Below are positions 19,618 to 41,453 of a DNA stretch of 64,000 bases, piece by piece. The stretch is from Candidatus Aenigmatarchaeota archaeon. Its GTDB lineage: Archaea; Aenigmatarchaeota; Aenigmatarchaeia; QMZP01; QMZT01. The notes under the pieces were generated by a model. It was not told the origin of the DNA. It made no database searches and was given only the letters and a program-made list of their open reading frames with translations. The DNA lies in NCBI GenBank assembly GCA_026397315.1, contig JAPLVC010000007.1, positions 45,450 through 109,449 of the forward strand, in the 5' to 3' direction. Each line of letters begins with the position of its first letter. Position 1 is the stretch's first letter. The position numbers were made by a program, and so were the translations under genes.

Positions 19618-19728
19618 TGGACTCGTCGGGATTTGAACCCGAGGCCTCTTGGATGCGAACCAAGCGCTCTCTAGCGACTGAAGCAGGCGAACCTGCTTCC
19701 ATCGAAATTACCACTGAGCTACGAGCCC
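19618..19728 (-). tRNA. tRNA-Ala (anticodon CGC) with a 39-nt intron at a non-canonical position in the D-loop
   Basis: Minus-strand read: GGGCTCG-TA-GCTC-AGTGGTA-[intron ATTTCGATGGAAGCAGGTTCGCCTGCTTCAGTCGCTAGA]-GAGC-G-CTTGG-TTCGCAT-CCAAG-AGGCC-TCGGG-TTCAAAT-CCCGA-CGAGTCC-A. The G3:U70 Ala identity pair is present and there is no encoded CCA. The intron forms an 8-bp hairpin with a TTCG tetraloop. Confidence 0.75.
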
Positions 19729-19754
19729 GTGTCAAACATTATCTTATTATTCAG

Positions 19755-19763
19755 TATATATAA
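19755..19763 (-). promoter_or_regulatory. TATA box (TTATATATA on the minus strand) about 27-35 nt upstream of the tRNA-Ala 5' end
   Basis: A/T-rich box at canonical archaeal spacing; lies in the divergent intergenic region shared with the LigD_N-like gene. Confidence 0.5.
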
Positions 19764-19771
19764 CTTAAATT

Positions 19772-20137
19772 ATGCCCGTTTTCGTAGTCCACGAGCATAA
19801 CGCTTCGCGCCTCCACTGGGACCTCCGCCTGGAGATGGACGGCGTGCTGAAATCGTGGGCCGTTCCGAAGGAGCCGCCGTTGGAAGCGAATGTCAAACGC
19901 CTCGCGATACAGGTGGATGACCACGCTCTTTCTTATGGGAAATTCGAAGGTGTCATTAAAGAAGGGTATGGTGCCGGCACCGTGAAAATCTGGGATAATG
20001 GAACGTATGAAATCGTGGACAAGAAACCTGATAAAATCGTTTTCAAGATTAGCGGCAGGAAGATGCGCGGGGAATACGTCCTGCTGAAATTCAAAAAAGC
20101 CGACGAAAAGGAATGGCTGCTTTTCAGGAAAGAATGA
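19772..20137 (+). CDS. LigD N-terminal domain (3'-phosphoesterase-like) stand-alone protein
   Basis: ASRLHWDLRLEMDGVLKSWAVPKEP...DHALSYGKFEG...GYGAGTVKIWDNGTY matches the LigD_N domain consensus. Confidence 0.6.
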   Translation: MPVFVVHEHNASRLHWDLRLEMDGVLKSWAVPKEPPLEANVKRLAIQVDDHALSYGKFEGVIKEGYGAGTVKIWDNGTYEIVDKKPDKIVFKISGRKMRGEYVLLKFKKADEKEWLLFRKE

Positions 20138-20183
20138 CAAAGTTGGTAAATACTTTTTCTAAAAATATCTGTTTTTAAAAAAA

Positions 20184-20648
20184 TTGATTGACTACATGTT
20201 TAAACATAGGTTATTATTACTACAATTCCAGAAATCATTAATGACCAAGATAATTTATCTCGACACCAACATCTATCTAGATTATTATTTTGATAGACAT
20301 GGATCTAAAAGAGCATTTGATATAATATTTTTTCGAGCACCAAATTGTGAATTCAAAATAGTTGTTTCAGATTGGGTTCTGCGAGAACTTGAACTTAATG
20401 GAATTGGTTCAAAAGAAATGAAAACACTTTTCAGTAGAATTTCTGAAAATAAAAAATTGGTTACAATTTTTACAGAAAAACCAAAGGACATAGACGATGC
20501 GAAAAAAATATCATCGGATCATTTTCAAGATCCATTACATGTGATTCTCGCTAAGAAGGGTGGCGCTGAAATATTAATAACAAGAAATGTACAAGATTTC
20601 AACTGTTGTAGGCATCTTTTAGATATCAAGTTTCCTGAAGATATTTGA
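20184..20648 (+). CDS. PIN-domain-like putative nuclease
   Basis: N-terminal IIYLDTNI and C-terminal AEILITRNVQDF resemble PIN signatures; AT-rich. Confidence 0.45.
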   Translation: MIDYMFKHRLLLLQFQKSLMTKIIYLDTNIYLDYYFDRHGSKRAFDIIFFRAPNCEFKIVVSDWVLRELELNGIGSKEMKTLFSRISENKKLVTIFTEKPKDIDDAKKISSDHFQDPLHVILAKKGGAEILITRNVQDFNCCRHLLDIKFPEDI

Positions 20649-21791
20649 TGTATCTTCCTTCGCAAATTCTTCAGCTATTTTTCTTCTTTCATCTTTCGTA
20701 GTCTTCTTCTCTTCAATTATTTTCATCAAAGTCCTGTATTTTTCAAATTCTTTAAACTCAGTTTCTTTCAATTCATCAACTTTGCACAGATCTCTCAAAT
20801 AAGAAACGTATTCAATCGCTAACCTTTCATTTATTATGAAATAAATATCAAGATATGATTTGAGCGTGTTTTTGTCATAACCAATTTTTAAAAGACTTTC
20901 AAAAAGATTATATGTGGTTATCATATCCCACACAATTCGCATAGTGTCTAGTATTTCTGTCCTCAATTCGTTTATTTCATCAGATTTCATAGTTTTTAGC
21001 ATGTAAATTGTAGTTGAAATAAAATCATTCAATATCTTTGCAGCATTTTCAGTTTCCTCATTTAATTTAAAATTAAATCCAATCTCCATTAGAATATCTC
21101 TTATTTTCAATTTGTTTTCATCATTTAATTCAATAATACCAAAATTTTTCTCAAATTCAAACTGTCTGAGATAGAGTAAATTTTTAGATTTTATATATTG
21201 TCCCTTTCTCATATACACCGAATTGTGATCTTTTTCTTTCTCAACTATTCTATTTATGCATTCGTTTATCTCACTCTCATTTTTAACGGACGTGTAACTA
21301 TAATCCTTTGTTGGGTCATATAATTTTAAGCAAAGTTCACCGAACCTGTACCAAACTAATGGTACATCTAGATTACATTCCTGTACTATATCTACAAGTA
21401 ATTTTTGAACTTGTGTTTTGTTAGGATAATAAGTCGTCTTCTCTTTCCAAGTTTCTCTAATTTTCATAAAAAGGAAATTTACTAAATTATCTTGTTCCGA
21501 CTTAATCGGTATTCCGAAAAGCGTTCCTGAATTTTTTTCGGGAGAACTTGTGCAAGATTTCAAAGTGAAAACTCTTTTGTTTCCTTCTGCTCTCTCAACA
21601 GCGATTCCGGATTCTTCTAGCATCTCCAAATATTTGCGCACACTATCCCATGTCGTTCCGGTTTCGCCGGCAACTTCATAAATAGATTTGGGGCCTTTTT
21701 TCAGGGATTCGATGACAGATTGAACAACTTCGCGGCTGGTCTTCTTGGCACTACCCCTGCCAGTTGTCATGTTAATAATATTGGTAACCAT
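20619..21791 (-). CDS. Hypothetical 390-aa protein with N-terminal winged HTH and long helical C-terminal region
   Basis: wHTH segment KSIYEVAGETGTTWDSVRKYLEMLEESGIAVERAEGNKRVFTL; the remainder is K/E/I/N-rich with no known motif; convergent with the PIN-like gene, overlapping it by 30 nt. Confidence 0.45.
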   Translation of the reverse strand: MVTNIINMTTGRGSAKKTSREVVQSVIESLKKGPKSIYEVAGETGTTWDSVRKYLEMLEESGIAVERAEGNKRVFTLKSCTSSPEKNSGTLFGIPIKSEQDNLVNFLFMKIRETWKEKTTYYPNKTQVQKLLVDIVQECNLDVPLVWYRFGELCLKLYDPTKDYSYTSVKNESEINECINRIVEKEKDHNSVYMRKGQYIKSKNLLYLRQFEFEKNFGIIELNDENKLKIRDILMEIGFNFKLNEETENAAKILNDFISTTIYMLKTMKSDEINELRTEILDTMRIVWDMITTYNLFESLLKIGYDKNTLKSYLDIYFIINERLAIEYVSYLRDLCKVDELKETEFKEFEKYRTLMKIIEEKKTTKDERRKIAEEFAKEDTSNIFRKLDI

Positions 21792-21907
21792 ATTTAAATA
21801 TCACCATATCAGCATAGACTAATTTTAAATAAGTAGAATGAATAAAAGCTTTATATACTTAATTGCAAATACTATATAGTTATTTGAGTATAGTAATGGA
21901 GGTAAAA

Positions 21908-22180
21908 ATGAGAAGAATCGTTAAAAGAGTAGTGGATGGCGATACTTTGGAAGTTAATCGTAATATAAATGGGACTAGATTTGTAAGACTCGCCAATGTA
22001 AACGCACCCGAAAGGCATCAATTTGGTGGAAGAACAGCGACAAAAACATTAACCGGCCTTGTAGGCGGTAGATCGATAACACTAACTCCTGTAGCAAGGG
22101 ACGTTTATGGAAGAGTAGTCGCCGAAGTCAGATGTGGAAGACAAAGTATCAATCGTAAAATGAAGAAAAGAGGATATTAA
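21908..22180 (+). CDS. Short thermonuclease (SNase)-like protein
   Basis: VVDGDTLEV...VRLANVNAPE resembles the SNase catalytic core (DGDT...R...D.PE); GGAGGT RBS precedes the internal ATG of ORF 21863..22180. Confidence 0.5.
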   Translation: MRRIVKRVVDGDTLEVNRNINGTRFVRLANVNAPERHQFGGRTATKTLTGLVGGRSITLTPVARDVYGRVVAEVRCGRQSINRKMKKRGY

Positions 22181-34288: not shown

Positions 34289-34594
34289 ATGAAAATGTTC
34301 GTTTCGATATTTTTTGCTATTTTTGTCATTTTGGTGGTGTCATCATCAGGATGCATTAATTCTGCGTATGAAGGTACATTACTGTATCAGAAAGCGGACG
34401 CCAACAAATGTGAAGCGTATTACATAGTAATCAAAGAAAAGCCATATGAGATAAACACAACTTTGGTTGGTGATTTGGATGATTATGTCAACAAGAGTGT
34501 TAGGATCAGGGGTGAATTGATTACTCGCACAGCGCTGAAAAAATGCTTATTTGAAACCACGATTAACGCAGCTGATATTCAGCTTATTGATTAA
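34289..34594 (+). CDS. Hypothetical small secreted/lipoprotein-like protein
   Basis: Signal-peptide-like N-terminus ending SSSGC; AT-rich. Confidence 0.35.
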   Translation: MKMFVSIFFAIFVILVVSSSGCINSAYEGTLLYQKADANKCEAYYIVIKEKPYEINTTLVGDLDDYVNKSVRIRGELITRTALKKCLFETTINAADIQLID

Positions 34595-38010: not shown

Positions 38011-38886
38011 TCACAGAGGACGCGCCGCTTTTAGATCTCTATAATGGTTTACATAGCCTTCTCTGCCGCCTAAAGTGGAACGTTCTGCCGCTTGAATTGC
38101 CTCCCTGTATTTTCCCATATCAGATAGACAAAGTGAAAGACGATAAAACGCTGGCATGTTCAAATCATCCAATTCCGTTGCTTTTTTGAAAAACCTGGCG
38201 GCCGTTTTATAATTTTTTTTATTGTCCCAATAAACGCCTACTTTAAAATAGATGTTTGCCAGAAGCTGGTCGTTGCTCAGCGGCAAGTCAAAAATTCCAT
38301 TCGAAAGTTCTTTTTGCGTATATTCATTTACGTCTTTAGTTGGCGCACCAAAAAATCCGCCGTTTGATTGAAAATTAAATTGATTTCCGTCTTTGTCAAT
38401 ATATCTCACGTAAAAATGTGATTCACTTTTACCTCTACATCTGACACCATACAACCACATGCCTTCAATGTCGGCAAGATCGAGATAAAGATACGAAGAT
38501 GTATCGCAATCGAGAGCGTTTTTTTTAAACCCTTCGGAAAGCATAAGGATATCCGCATCATCCGGGTTGAAAACGAAATTGAATGGTTTATCTTTCAGTA
38601 TGTTGTATATGACGGGTAGGTTTTCTGGCCCTATATCCGGCTTGTATTTCTCATGAAAAACTTTTCTGAGCCTGTGCAGCTTTTCAACCGCTCCATGATA
38701 GTCAAAGTCATAATCTGTGCATGTTCGCTCAATGTAAAGCGTTTTCTCGCCAAAACCGTTTAAATTATTCAAGAAGGAGTCATTCATGACCGATGCCCTA
38801 TCGCCGCGTGTGCTGAGCATGTCAAATCCCAAAGCAGCTCCGCCCGCCAGCTTCAATGCGGTCCCTATGAAATTTCTCCTTTTCAT
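38011..38886 (-). CDS. TAT-signal secreted protein with C-terminal TPR-like region, paralog A
   Basis: Twin-arginine motif MKRRNFIGTALKLAGGAALG at the internal Met; shares the SEGF..LDCDTSS.LYLD.ADIE core and TPR-like tail with the adjacent paralog. Confidence 0.5.
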   Translation of the reverse strand: MKRRNFIGTALKLAGGAALGFDMLSTRGDRASVMNDSFLNNLNGFGEKTLYIERTCTDYDFDYHGAVEKLHRLRKVFHEKYKPDIGPENLPVIYNILKDKPFNFVFNPDDADILMLSEGFKKNALDCDTSSYLYLDLADIEGMWLYGVRCRGKSESHFYVRYIDKDGNQFNFQSNGGFFGAPTKDVNEYTQKELSNGIFDLPLSNDQLLANIYFKVGVYWDNKKNYKTAARFFKKATELDDLNMPAFYRLSLCLSDMGKYREAIQAAERSTLGGREGYVNHYRDLKAARPL

Positions 38887-38945
38887 CGAGAATACGATTG
38901 CGGCAAGTCTTTTAACCGGTGATTGTACTGTAAAAATTGCCTTAT
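38850..38945. repeat. Tandem duplication: 5' leader and signal-peptide region of paralog A is about 85% identical to 39815..39910 of paralog B
   Basis: gaaatttctccttttcatcgagaatacgattgcggcaagtcttttaac compared with gaaatttctcctattcatcgaaaatacggttgcggcaagttttttaac. Confidence 0.6.
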
Positions 38946-39850
38946 CTGGGGCCGTAAGCCATATTAGCGATGCGATACAGTCGGATGTAATTTTTGACAA
39001 ATTCTGGTCTGCGTCCAAGCGTGGATTTGGCCGCGGCTTCAAGGGCTTCACCATATTCCTCTGCATTTTCCAAAGACACGGAAAGCATGAAATGCGCGTT
39101 CACGTTTCTTCTATCCAATTCTGCCGCTTTTTTGAAAAACCCGGCGGCCTTCCTGTAGCATTCCGTGTTGCCAAAGCCCGCCCAGTTCAAACCTATGTTA
39201 TAGTAAATCTCAGAAACGCATTCCCGCCTGCTCAGCGTTCTTCGATAAACGCCGCATTTCACTTCTTTTTTCGCGGGCGAATTCATTTCCGCTTTTGTCG
39301 GCGAACCGGGCGGTCCCGCCCATCCAAAATATCCCCGATTGGATTGATAGTCTTCATATCCGCCGCCGTAATTAATCCATCTTATGTGAAAATGCTGCCC
39401 TTTGGTGCCTCTCGTTTTCACGCCAAAAACGGGCATGTGTTCGATATCGGCGACGTCAAGGTACAAAAAGCTGCTGGTATCGCAATCGAGCATCCCTTTT
39501 TCAAAACCTTCGCTCAGAAGAAGCACTCCATCTTCACTACCGTTGAAAACAAAGCTGAAAGGCTTTTCCCGGAGGGTCCTGTAAATCGTGTGGAGGTTTT
39601 TCGAACCGATGTGCGGGTCATACCTCTTGTGTATGACGTCTCTGAATCTTGACAGTTTATCCATTGCAGCATCGAAAACGAACTCACGCGGCGTGTTTCG
39701 TTTTTCAAGGGCAATTGCGTTCTCCGCGAACCCTTTCGCGCCGCTCTCATAAATGCCGGTTTCTGCATCGCGGCCGTAGCTTCCTATGGAAGGGAGCGCT
39801 AAAGACGCGGCGGCTAAAGCCACATCTTTTATGAAATTTCTCCTATTCAT
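38942..39850 (-). CDS. TAT-signal secreted protein with C-terminal TPR-like region, paralog B
   Basis: MNRRNFIKDVALAAASLALP twin-arginine signal; paralog of 38011..38886. Confidence 0.55.
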   Translation of the reverse strand: MNRRNFIKDVALAAASLALPSIGSYGRDAETGIYESGAKGFAENAIALEKRNTPREFVFDAAMDKLSRFRDVIHKRYDPHIGSKNLHTIYRTLREKPFSFVFNGSEDGVLLLSEGFEKGMLDCDTSSFLYLDVADIEHMPVFGVKTRGTKGQHFHIRWINYGGGYEDYQSNRGYFGWAGPPGSPTKAEMNSPAKKEVKCGVYRRTLSRRECVSEIYYNIGLNWAGFGNTECYRKAAGFFKKAAELDRRNVNAHFMLSVSLENAEEYGEALEAAAKSTLGRRPEFVKNYIRLYRIANMAYGPR

Positions 39851-39902
39851 CGAAAATACGGTTGCGGCAAGTTTTTTAACGGATGTTTGTGCTAGAAACC
39901 GG

Positions 39903-41453
39903 CTAGAAGTCCATTATTTTCAGCTGGCCGCGCTTCGGCTTTCTCGCACCAGAAGACTCTTCCTTCATCTCGTGCAGAGTGCGCTTCATTACGCCCTCTT
40001 TCTTCTGCGCGGTCCAGTAATACGCCTCGTCGCGCGTGCGCCTGGCGATGAGTATGACTATCCTGCCGACCTTCGTTCGTCCCACTCGTCCGCGCCGCTG
40101 TATCGAACGTATCTCGGAAGGCACGGGCTCGTAGAAAATAGCCAGTTCCATTTCCGGGATATCGATACCTTCTTCTCCGATCGAGGTCGTGACCAGCACG
40201 TTGTATGTGCCTTCCTTGAAGTCCTGTATGCGCTGCTTCTGCTCGAGCTGGGACATTCCCTCCTTCTGCCCCATGAACTCGCCCGGCACCGCGCCTTCGA
40301 CTGAAGCGAGCGACTTCACGATCTCCCTGACCATTTCCCTGTAATTCGCGAATATGATGATTTTGGAATCGGGCTTGCCGCGCAGCTGGCTGCTGACGAG
40401 CTCGCTGAGCTTGCCGATTTTGGGGTGCTTCCTTCCATCGGCCTCGAGCGCCTGGGCGAGCTCCATCGCTTTCTCGACCTTCTTGTCGCGCAATACGCTT
40501 TTCGACGACCTGGCCTTGTCCGACGACAGCTTCCTGAAGTAATTCCATAGCGACGTTATGCCCTGCGTTTCCAGAAGGCCCAGCGCGTGCTCGATTTTTA
40601 TGGCCTGCGCTACCAGCGAGACGCCCCAGAACTTCGTGTAGTCATGCGTCGGGCTCTGCATCAATTTTTGTTGTAACATTAGCAGGTCGCGCTTGCTTAT
40701 GATGCCGACGGGCTTCCTGAAGCCGACCTTGTGCAGTTTTTCGAGCCTTTCCATGTACGCGCGCTTGAGCGAATCGCGCAATCCCAAAAAATCGTCGGGC
40801 AGATCGACGTATACCCATTCCATCTTTTTCTCCTGAACCCACGACTCGACGTCATCGTCGCTCTCGGTGCGTATCTCCACGTCGCGTATGCCGAGGTTGT
40901 CCATTATCTCCTTTATCTTTGCTTTCGTCCCGCCAGGCGATGCCGTCAGTCCGAGTATCCTCTTGTTCTTAGCCTGTTCCGCATACGCCTTGGCTATGAA
41001 CGGATAAGCGTAGTCGCCAATCGAATGGTGCGCTTCATCGAAGACGAGGAGCGAAAAATCGGCGAGGTTTATGCGCCCCTCGGTCAGGTCGTTCTCTATC
41101 GTCTGAGGCGTGGCGAATATGATGCTTGCGCTTTTGTAAACCTCCTGCCTGCTCTCGGGCTTCATCTTGCCCGTGACCAGCACGAACGCTTCATCGGGCA
41201 GATCTATCACGCGCCTGAAAGAATGCAGATGCTGCTCGGTCAGCGGCCTTGTCGGAGCCATGACCAGAACTTTCGAGCCGGGGAACTTCTGCAGCCGGAA
41301 TACCGCCAGCACTATCGCTATGGGAGTCTTGCCCAATCCCGTTGGCAATACGCAGAGCAGGTCGCTAGCGACTGCGCGGCCGAGTATCGCTTCCTGATAC
41401 AGGCGCGACTCAAGCGTGTCCTTCTTTATCATCACATGCTCGATGAAAGCCAT
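39903..41453 (-). CDS. Hef/ERCC4-like superfamily 2 helicase (helicase domains only)
   Basis: RLYQ, PTGLGKT, DEAHH, GLTASPG, QRRGRVGR motifs; 516 aa with no nuclease domain. Confidence 0.7.
   Translation of the reverse strand: MAFIEHVMIKKDTLESRLYQEAILGRAVASDLLCVLPTGLGKTPIAIVLAVFRLQKFPGSKVLVMAPTRPLTEQHLHSFRRVIDLPDEAFVLVTGKMKPESRQEVYKSASIIFATPQTIENDLTEGRINLADFSLLVFDEAHHSIGDYAYPFIAKAYAEQAKNKRILGLTASPGGTKAKIKEIMDNLGIRDVEIRTESDDDVESWVQEKKMEWVYVDLPDDFLGLRDSLKRAYMERLEKLHKVGFRKPVGIISKRDLLMLQQKLMQSPTHDYTKFWGVSLVAQAIKIEHALGLLETQGITSLWNYFRKLSSDKARSSKSVLRDKKVEKAMELAQALEADGRKHPKIGKLSELVSSQLRGKPDSKIIIFANYREMVREIVKSLASVEGAVPGEFMGQKEGMSQLEQKQRIQDFKEGTYNVLVTTSIGEEGIDIPEMELAIFYEPVPSEIRSIQRRGRVGRTKVGRIVILIARRTRDEAYYWTAQKKEGVMKRTLHEMKEESSGARKPKRGQLKIMDF

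What the first reader, a model, noticed from the sequence alone, without database searches (positions are those of the whole stretch)
38011..39910. Tandem duplicated genes for TAT-exported proteins with a shared DCDTSS core and C-terminal TPR-like region
Two adjacent paralogs carry twin-arginine signals (RRNFI), a conserved central block (LLLSEGF..LDCDTSS.LYLD.ADIE...HF.IR.I...GYFG) and TPR-like tails. Their 5' leaders and signal-peptide coding regions are still about 85% identical at the nucleotide level, which points to a recent duplication. I cannot place them in any known family. Exported, duplicated and diverging proteins are candidates for surface or interaction functions.
Basis: seen in the sequence. 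Interest (0 to 1): 0.5.

Follow-up and report, generated by a model that had tools for sequence, protein, structure and literature searches.

The report
Exported transglutaminase-fold enzymes with TPR tails
Two neighbouring genes of an Aenigmarchaeota archaeon encode proteins with export signals that have the fold of E. coli YchA/SirB1 and of menin but, unlike YchA, keep a cysteine-histidine pair, and they sit in a genome slot whose content differs sharply between close relatives.

Summary
Two tandem paralogs lie on the minus strand: A at 38942-39850 (302 aa) and B at 38011-38886 (291 aa). They are 41% identical. Both start with M-x-RRNFI, share an LDCDTSS...HF core and end in TPR repeats.

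- The duplication is not recent. Synonymous sites between A and B are saturated.
- The conserved 5' end is a 69-nt direct repeat, 86% identical. The same block lies in front of all five close family genes in three genomes. It looks like a leaderless archaeal promoter plus the twin-arginine codons.
- The proteins can be placed. Direct Pfam searches find only TPR. Profile searches, hhalign and a confident AlphaFold model put them in the transglutaminase-like + TPR superfamily (Pfam Transglut_core2; E. coli YchA/SirB1).
- Menin is the only full-length structural match.

Unlike YchA, every member of this branch keeps Asp-Cys and His at the catalytic positions, and most members have export signals.

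Best reading: an exported thiol enzyme acting on peptide or isopeptide bonds, with substrate binding by the TPR module.

New finding: the slot between the Hef-like helicase and GatD holds deeply divergent family members in closely related genomes.

Activity, substrate and the presence of a Tat translocase are untested.

The parts
38942..39850 (-). Gene A: 302-aa precursor made of a twin-arginine signal, a transglutaminase-fold domain and a TPR tail
   Evidence: ORF list. Identical to NCBI protein P0001, named 'twin-arginine translocation signal domain-containing protein', Candidatus Aenigmarchaeota. AF2 model pLDDT 84.5.
38011..38886 (-). Gene B: 291-aa paralog with the same architecture (start at the internal ATG 38886, not 39066)
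   Evidence: Identical to NCBI protein P0003, 291 aa.
39830..39844 (-). Codons for RRNFI (aa 3-7) of A, the twin-arginine motif
   Evidence: TIGR01409 23.8 bits against a cut-off of 16.7. R3, R4 and F6 are invariant in 8 Aenigmarchaeal homologs.
38866..38880 (-). Codons for RRNFI (aa 3-7) of B
   Evidence: TIGR01409 14.7 bits, just below the cut-off. Same invariant RR-x-F.
39320..39730 (-). A residues 41-177: N-terminal helical part plus transglutaminase-like alpha/beta core. Cys123 is at 39482-39484, His153 at 39392-39394, Asn171 at 39338-39340.
38960..39235 (-). A residues 206-297: TPR module, five helices
38416..38508 (-). B catalytic segment from Cys127 (38506-38508) to His157 (38416-38418)
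   Evidence: Positions derived from the BLASTP alignment and the alignment.
39830..39898 (-). Copy 1 of the 69-nt direct repeat: upstream region of A with the TATA-like TTAAAAAA (39872-39879), 22-29 nt before the ATG, plus the first 21 coding bases
   Evidence: the repeat finder, sequence, conserved in five genes of three genomes. The leaderless promoter is an inference from the spacing.
38866..38934 (-). Copy 2 of the direct repeat: upstream region of B with TTAAAAGA (38908-38915). The oligo-T run that follows A's stop codon (38932-38936) overlaps its upstream end.

Best explanation
A and B are separately transcribed genes. Each has its own TATA-like box about 25 nt before the ATG, which suggests a leaderless mRNA, and each is followed by an oligo-T run. 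Each encodes a precursor of about 300 aa with three parts: a twin-arginine signal peptide, a transglutaminase-fold (papain-like) domain and a short TPR module. They form a divergent branch of the superfamily that holds E. coli YchA/SirB1 (Pfam Transglut_core2 + TPR). The overall shape is that of menin, a transglutaminase-like 'thumb' packed against a TPR 'palm'. Unlike YchA, this branch keeps the Asp-Cys and His of the catalytic centre and is targeted out of the cytoplasm. Proposed mechanism (inferred): the protein folds in the cytoplasm and is exported by the Tat route to the outer face of the membrane or the cell envelope. The TPR and thumb groove then holds a peptide segment of an envelope or partner-cell protein, and the thiolate-imidazolium pair attacks an amide or isopeptide bond. 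The activity could be that of a protease, isopeptidase, amidase or transglutaminase. The slot between the Hef-like helicase and GatD holds one or two such genes, and its content changes far faster than its flanks. That pattern fits selection for diversity on an extracellular interaction protein. Shown here: architecture, homology, conservation of Cys and His, signal motif, synteny, locus variability. Inferred: export route, catalysis, substrate, the reason for the variability.
For: Homology. A profile search of 1.84 billion representatives finds three homologs of about 300 aa (E 1e-42 to 1e-47) and more distant ones with the same core plus TPR. Four of the distant ones pass the Pfam gathering score for Transglut_core2: 25.2 to 29.8 bits against 23.5. 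Core-only hhalign gives 99.3%, E 1.8e-20. hhalign against E. coli YchA, which RefSeq names 'transglutaminase-like/TPR repeat-containing protein', gives 88.9%, E 2.4e-6 over 209 columns spanning the whole architecture.
Catalytic centre. D122, C123 and H153 are invariant in 19 sequences. YchA has Ala and Gln at these columns.
Export. RR-x-F is invariant in 8 homologs. TIGR01409 is passed by A, P0002, P0005, P0008, P0084 and P0124. Bacterial and distant relatives carry signals that look Sec-type or lipoprotein-type by eye.
Locus. The same helicase|GatD position is used in five related contigs. Flanking genes have dN about 0.03. Orthologs of A have dN 0.13. B against the gene in the same slot has dN about 0.5 with saturated synonymous sites, and the divergence has sharp edges. 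A second clade shows the same pattern: flanks with dS 0.18 against a gene with 33% aa identity.
Against: No Pfam, NCBIfam or PDB sequence model hits the core of A or B directly, so membership rests on transitive and profile-profile evidence. B's signal scores just below the TIGR01409 cut-off, and Pfam TAT_signal does not reach its threshold for either protein. No TatA or TatC was seen in the window by crude scans, and the rest of the genome could not be searched. The column of the third catalytic residue is Gln or His in this clade and Glu in distant members, not the canonical Asp. Model coordinates could not be inspected, so the Cys-His geometry is unverified. The best-known relatives of this fold, YchA and menin, are not enzymes.
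Confidence: 0.6

Rival explanations
1. The proteins are exported but not catalytic. They act as peptide-binding adaptors or scaffolds, as menin does and YchA/SirB1 presumably does. The conserved Cys and His would serve in structure or ligand binding.
For: The closest structural match (menin) and the named relative (YchA) are not known enzymes. The third triad position is not the canonical Asp.
Against: D-C and H are invariant in 19 sequences that are otherwise only 18-40% identical, exactly at the catalytic positions of the fold, while YchA has lost both. Such retention is hard to explain without chemistry at that site.
Confidence: 0.2
2. The proteins are not Tat substrates. The RR-x-F N-terminus would be a Sec signal, an uncleaved membrane anchor or a cytoplasmic helix, because this reduced genome may lack a Tat translocase.
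For: No Tat components were found in the 64-kb window. B scores below the TIGR01409 cut-off and Pfam TAT_signal is sub-threshold. These are the only two RR-signal ORFs in the window.
Against: RR-x-F followed by an Ala/Gly/Leu-rich stretch is invariant across 8 homologs whose following linker is not conserved. Six family members pass TIGR01409. Relatives in other phyla have other N-terminal segments that look like export signals, so an extracytoplasmic location seems to be a family trait.
Confidence: 0.15
3. Asp-Cys...His forms a metal or cofactor site. This would be the reason for using the Tat route, and the protein would be a redox or metal-handling factor rather than a hydrolase.
For: Outside haloarchaea, Tat substrates include proteins that must bind a cofactor before export (PMC6098224). 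Asp, Cys and His are typical metal ligands.
Against: The residues fall exactly on the catalytic Cys and His positions of the transglutaminase fold. No second Cys or His is conserved to complete a site.
Confidence: 0.05
4. One reading: a recent tandem duplication whose 5' ends have not yet diverged.
For: A 69-nt direct repeat, 86% identical, at the two gene starts.
Against: Synonymous sites between A and B are saturated (pS 0.75), as deep as between any two lineages of the family. The same block precedes orthologs in other genomes, including the single-copy locus L002. A related genome carries an A-type ortholog (80% aa identity) in the same position, so the paralog lineages predate the split of these genomes.
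Confidence: 0.02

Closest known systems
E. coli YchA / SirB1 family (Pfam PF13369 Transglut_core2 followed by TPR; RefSeq name 'transglutaminase-like/TPR repeat-containing protein')
   Same: The same order of parts: a helical N-terminal part, a transglutaminase-like alpha/beta core and a TPR tail, aligned over 209 columns. Distant relatives of A and B pass the Pfam threshold.
   Different: YchA starts without a twin-arginine motif or an evident signal peptide (by eye). It has Ala and Gln where A and B have Cys123 and His153. A and B themselves do not reach the Pfam model. The function of YchA is itself poorly known.
Menin (PDB 3re2, 5ddc, 4gpq)
   Same: The only full-length structural match: a transglutaminase-like 'thumb' plus a TPR 'palm' that form a peptide-binding pocket.
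   Different: Menin is eukaryotic and nuclear, about twice as long, and acts as a scaffold. Sequence identity is 12-13%, and no sequence-level relation was detected.
Catalytic transglutaminase-fold thiol enzymes (transglutaminases, PNGase, the pseudomurein endoisopeptidases PeiW/PeiP, vasohibin-type proteases). From my own knowledge; not compared here.
   Same: Cys at the N-terminus of a helix and His on the following beta-strand, both strictly conserved.
   Different: No sequence model of these families hits A or B. The third residue is Gln, His or Glu rather than Asp. The fused TPR module and the Tat signal are not typical of them.
Twin-arginine (Tat) substrates of archaea
   Same: An N-terminal M-x-RRNF-I motif followed by a mildly hydrophobic Ala/Gly/Leu stretch. 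TIGR01409 is passed by A.
   Different: Outside haloarchaea the known Tat substrates include cofactor-binding proteins (PMC6098224). A cofactor-less hydrolase-like protein with TPR repeats would be an unusual client. The translocase was not shown for this genome.

Membership tests
Transglut_core2 + TPR superfamily (YchA/SirB1-like) | The query proteins themselves match Pfam PF13369 above the gathering score | tested here: not met
   For A and B, and for the five close cores, only TPR models and a weak Peptidase_C39 hint (E 0.17) are found.
Transglut_core2 + TPR superfamily (YchA/SirB1-like) | Homology of the core to proteins that do match PF13369, independent of the TPR part | tested here: met
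   Core-only hhalign gives 99.3%, E 1.8e-20. P0084, P0094, P0097 and P0124 score 25.2-29.8 bits against a cut-off of 23.5.
Transglut_core2 + TPR superfamily (YchA/SirB1-like) | Profile-level similarity to the name-giving protein E. coli YchA over the whole architecture | tested here: met
   hhalign of A7 against YchA: probability 88.9%, E 2.4e-6, 209 columns. This is moderate rather than overwhelming, because the template is a single sequence.
Transglut_core2 + TPR superfamily (YchA/SirB1-like) | A transglutaminase-like alpha/beta core packed against a C-terminal TPR array | tested here: met
Catalytically active transglutaminase-fold / papain-like thiol enzymes | Conserved nucleophile Cys at the N-terminus of a helix and His on the adjacent strand | tested here: met
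   C123 and H153 are invariant in 19 sequences. Both residues are lost in YchA.
Catalytically active transglutaminase-fold / papain-like thiol enzymes | A third polar residue (Asp or Asn) that orients the His | tested here: inconclusive
   The aligned column is Gln or His in the close clade and Glu in most of the distant members. N171 is invariant only among the 8 Aenigmarchaeal proteins. The 3D geometry could not be read.
Catalytically active transglutaminase-fold / papain-like thiol enzymes | Demonstrated thiol-dependent activity | not testable with these tools
   Needs biochemistry.
Tat (twin-arginine) substrates | An RR-x-F-[LI] motif and h-region recognised by a curated signal model | tested here: met
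   Met for A only. TIGR01409: A 23.8 bits (pass, cut-off 16.7), B 14.7 bits (just below). Homologs P0002, P0005, P0008, P0084 and P0124 pass. Pfam TAT_signal is sub-threshold.
Tat (twin-arginine) substrates | TatA and TatC encoded in the same genome | not tested
   Only the 64-kb window was available. Crude motif and transmembrane scans found none there. Literature searches gave nothing for Aenigmarchaeota.
TPR repeat proteins | Matches to TPR models | tested here: met
Polymorphic toxin / effector-immunity loci | A conserved N-terminal trafficking part, unrelated C-terminal toxin folds, and an adjacent immunity gene | tested here: not met
   All variants keep the same fold. There is no small partner ORF next to A or B in the window. 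A co-varying small ORF exists only in the second clade.

The most novel reading that the evidence does not exclude
The helicase|GatD slot of these Aenigmarchaeota may be a cassette-like, population-level hypervariable locus. Under this reading, ancient alleles of an exported thiol enzyme are swapped by recombination, or differentially retained from an array. The conserved roughly 65-nt promoter and twin-arginine start block would serve as one homology arm and GatD as the other. The enzyme would act on the envelope of a host or partner cell, making it an arms-race or partner-specificity determinant of a DPANN symbiont. It would also be a catalytically live, secreted ancestor-like form of the otherwise inactive YchA and menin type of scaffold.
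Probability: 0.25. Interest if true: 0.7.

Novelty: new variant of a known kind. Interest (0 to 1): 0.45.

Why it matters
The transglutaminase-like + TPR architecture is widespread, from E. coli YchA/SirB1 to the tumour suppressor menin, but its original biochemical role is obscure because the studied members have lost the catalytic residues. A branch that keeps the Cys-His pair and is sent outside the cell offers a direct way to ask what this two-domain machine does. For DPANN archaea, which are thought to depend on contact with other cells, very few candidate surface effectors are known. An exported enzyme in a fast-changing genomic slot is a concrete candidate for such a role. The value is still that of a lead, since nothing about activity or substrate has been shown.

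Tried and rejected
- Direct Pfam and NCBIfam scans of A, B and the five cores found only TPR, the Tat signal and noise.
- PDB sequence searches with the single protein and with core profiles gave nothing for the core.
- The first AF2 run, with a 5-sequence alignment, was unusable: pLDDT 41.8.
- The word-indexed protein searches returned very few proteins: 2, 4 and 1. The exhaustive representative search was needed, and it was swamped by TPR hits.
- The afdb50 fold library was unavailable.
- The BFVD search gave one uncharacterised Solivirus protein (TMq 0.48) and otherwise TPR or noise.
With the 5-sequence alignment it found one close genome and bacterial relatives of the core.
- The metagenome scans, one for the conserved promoter DNA and one for the protein patterns, both found nothing.
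- A search for Tat components in the window, by a TatA motif and by multi-TM ORFs, found none.
- Literature searches on the Tat pathway in Aenigmarchaeota or DPANN and on transglutaminase-like proteins in DPANN found nothing relevant.
- I considered a 5' RNA hairpin or palindrome at the RR-N/E-F codons. I dropped it, because the Asn/Glu-Phe codon pairs are reverse complements of each other by nature.
- I considered a polymorphic-toxin locus and rejected it for the window: same fold in all variants and no immunity-like ORF.
Full report
**1. What is there**

The window is archaeal. The region is flanked by GatE and GatD on one side and by a Hef-like helicase, an eIF-2B-like protein and TBP on the other. 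Public copies of the two proteins are labelled Candidatus Aenigmarchaeota.

Two genes lie head to tail on the minus strand.
- A is at 38942-39850 and encodes 302 aa.
- B is at 38011-38886 and encodes 291 aa.

B's ORF extends to 39066 and would then overlap A. The internal MKRRNFIG start at 38886 reproduces the deposited 291-aa protein exactly.

A and B are 41% identical (E 3e-74). The 5' similarity is a 69-nt direct repeat, 86% identical.

**2. Family placement**

Direct scans see only TPR repeats and, for A, the TIGR01409 twin-arginine signal.

Close relatives are extremely rare.
- Among 5.8 billion clustered proteins I found only A and B themselves, a tandem pair (P0002 and P0004) on an ENA Aenigmatarchaeia contig, and a single gene (P0005) in another Aenigmatarchaeota MAG.
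- The species-representative genomes hold only that same MAG as a close relative.
- The JGI metagenome collection holds none.

An exhaustive profile search adds three homologs of about 300 aa (E 1e-42 to 1e-47). It also adds a set of distant proteins with the same LDCD...PxHxFVRW...NWET core followed by more TPR repeats.
- Four of these pass the Pfam gathering score for Transglut_core2.
- With all TPR sequence removed, the core of the close family aligns to the core of the distant set at 99.3% probability, E 1.8e-20.
- The 19-sequence profile aligns to E. coli YchA over 209 columns, from the N-terminal helices through the TPR part (88.9%, E 2.4e-6). RefSeq names YchA 'transglutaminase-like/TPR repeat-containing protein'.

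With the 19-sequence alignment AlphaFold gives a confident model (pLDDT 84.5, pTM 0.83). An earlier 5-sequence run was useless.

**3. What distinguishes this branch**

Across 19 sequences that are mostly 18-40% identical to A, only four positions are invariant: Asp122, Cys123, His153 and Gly200.
- In the model Cys123 opens a helix and His153 sits in the following beta-hairpin. This is the arrangement of the nucleophile and base in transglutaminase-fold and papain-like enzymes (my own knowledge of the fold).
- E. coli YchA has Ala and Gln at these two columns.
- The column that corresponds to the third triad member is Gln or His in the close clade and Glu in most of the distant members. Asn171 is invariant only among the eight Aenigmarchaeal proteins. 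That point stays open.

The second distinction is location.
- RR-x-F is invariant in the eight Aenigmarchaeal proteins, while the linker behind the signal is the least conserved part.
- TIGR01409 is passed by A and by five homologs. B (14.7 bits) and P0004 (16.4 bits) fall just below the 16.7 cut-off.
- By eye, several distant archaeal relatives combine an RR motif with a lipobox-like Cys, and bacterial relatives (Solimonas, Bdellovibrionales) have N-termini that look like Sec signals.

Export therefore seems to be a trait of the whole Cys/His-retaining branch. Whether this genome has a Tat translocase could not be tested. None is visible in the window, and the literature searches were uninformative.

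**4. The duplication and the conserved 5' block**

Between A and B the proportion of synonymous differences is 0.75, which is saturated, and dN is 0.56. The duplication is old.

The conserved block lies in front of all five close genes in three genomes, including the single-copy locus. It covers about 50 nt upstream of the ATG plus the first 21 coding bases.
- It contains TTAAAAAA (TTAAAAGA for B) 22-29 nt before the ATG. That spacing is what one expects for an archaeal TATA box of a leaderless mRNA. This is an inference and was not measured.
- Each gene is followed by an oligo-T run.

In L001 the spacer in front of the second copy still carries a decayed copy of the last codons of the helicase gene: ATGATGGACTTCTGG against ATAATGGACTTCTAG. 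This scar shows that the duplicated unit began inside the 3' end of the helicase gene.

**5.

The family gene sits between the Hef-like helicase and GatD in the window, L001 and L002 and, with an 88-aa ORF after the helicase, in L003. L004 and L008 show it directly upstream of GatD, but those contigs end before any helicase gene. The slot holds one or two copies.

| Comparison | Amino-acid identity | dS or pS | dN |
|---|---|---|---|
| GatD among window, L001 and L002 | 93% | dS 0.6-0.85 | 0.03 |
| Helicase, window vs L002 | 96% | dS 0.48 | 0.03 |
| A vs its ortholog P0002 | 80% | dS 0.73 | 0.13 |
| P0004 vs P0005 | 77% | dS 0.79 | 0.13 |
| B vs P0004 or P0005, which hold the same GatD-proximal position | 44% | pS 0.72-0.77 (saturated) | about 0.5 |

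Sliding nucleotide identity between the window and L001 runs as follows:
- about 90% in the helicase gene,
- about 80% in A,
- 88% at B's promoter,
- about 50% through B,
- back to 85-91% from B's stop codon into GatD.

A second clade repeats the pattern.
- Two contigs from one sample have GatD 98% identical (dS 0.18).
- They carry P0008 and P0007, which are 33% identical with saturated synonymous sites.
- Between them there is again an island of about 65 nt of near-identity at the promoter and start.
- The P0008 arrangement is confirmed on a 1.1-Mb contig.

Synonymous sites are saturated inside the gene but not in the flanks. Faster amino-acid change alone cannot explain that. Either old alleles are exchanged by recombination, or different members of an ancestral array were kept in different lineages. 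I could not decide between the two.

**6. Mechanism**

The best-supported reading is an exported transglutaminase-fold thiol enzyme whose TPR module, together with the thumb domain, holds a peptide substrate. The bond attacked would be an amide or isopeptide bond.

My confidence in the parts:

| Claim | Confidence |
|---|---|
| Fold and superfamily | about 0.9 |
| Extracytoplasmic location | about 0.7 |
| Export by Tat specifically | about 0.6 |
| Real catalysis | about 0.6 |
| Substrate | unknown |

The rivals are a non-catalytic binding protein, a non-Tat or cytoplasmic protein, and a metal site. They are listed with their tests.

**7. Verdict**

This is a real feature that was described correctly. 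It is misread as recent, and it can be placed in a known superfamily.

It is a new variant of a known kind. It matters mainly as a catalytically intact, exported relative of YchA and menin-type proteins, and as a variable extracellular candidate in a DPANN archaeon.

Interest is moderate.

Noticed in passing
window 19619-21800: A low-GC patch (GC 0.31 in 20001-22000, against about 0.5 elsewhere) lies next to a tRNA-Ala gene (19619-19693). It holds a PIN-domain ORF (20184-20648, sub-threshold Pfam matches) and a 390-aa ORF with a weak DUF7342 match (20619-21791). It may be a small integrated or foreign island.
   Followed up: partly
L003 5688-5954 and L008 2-172: In the second clade a small ORF (88 aa in L003, no Pfam hit on record, no evident signal by eye) lies just upstream of the transglutaminase/TPR gene and diverges together with it between two otherwise 92-100% identical haplotypes. 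It could be a cognate partner such as a chaperone or inhibitor. The window has no equivalent.
   Followed up: partly
window 38167-38203 and 39113-39149: A second short island of nucleotide identity between A and B: 37 nt, 89% identical, encoding AA(G/R)FFKKA(A/T)ELD in the first TPR. It stands out against saturated synonymous sites elsewhere. It could be a small gene-conversion tract or a codon-level constraint.
   Followed up: no
L001 4753-4831: The spacer in front of the second copy (P0004) keeps a decayed copy of the last codons of the helicase gene. This scar marks the 5' boundary of the tandem duplication unit.
   Followed up: partly
L003 6894-8306; L001 2269-3797: GatD in L003 is called as a truncated 301-aa product, although the DNA is 95-100% identical to L004, where it is complete. 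The helicase gene in L001 is split into two ORFs. Both are probably assembly indels rather than biology.
   Followed up: partly
window 34289-34594: A small ORF of 101 aa with a hydrophobic N-terminus ending in SSSGC, which looks like a signal with a lipobox, and no Pfam match. It may be another exported protein close to the locus.
   Followed up: no
L011, L013, L014 (Solimonas soli, Pirellulales, Bdellovibrionales): Bacterial proteins share the DCDTS...H.FVRW...NWET core plus TPR repeats, and two of them have N-termini that look like Sec signals. Pfam does not assign Transglut_core2 to the two that were scanned. The Cys/His-retaining branch therefore spans both domains and is largely unannotated.
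   Followed up: partly
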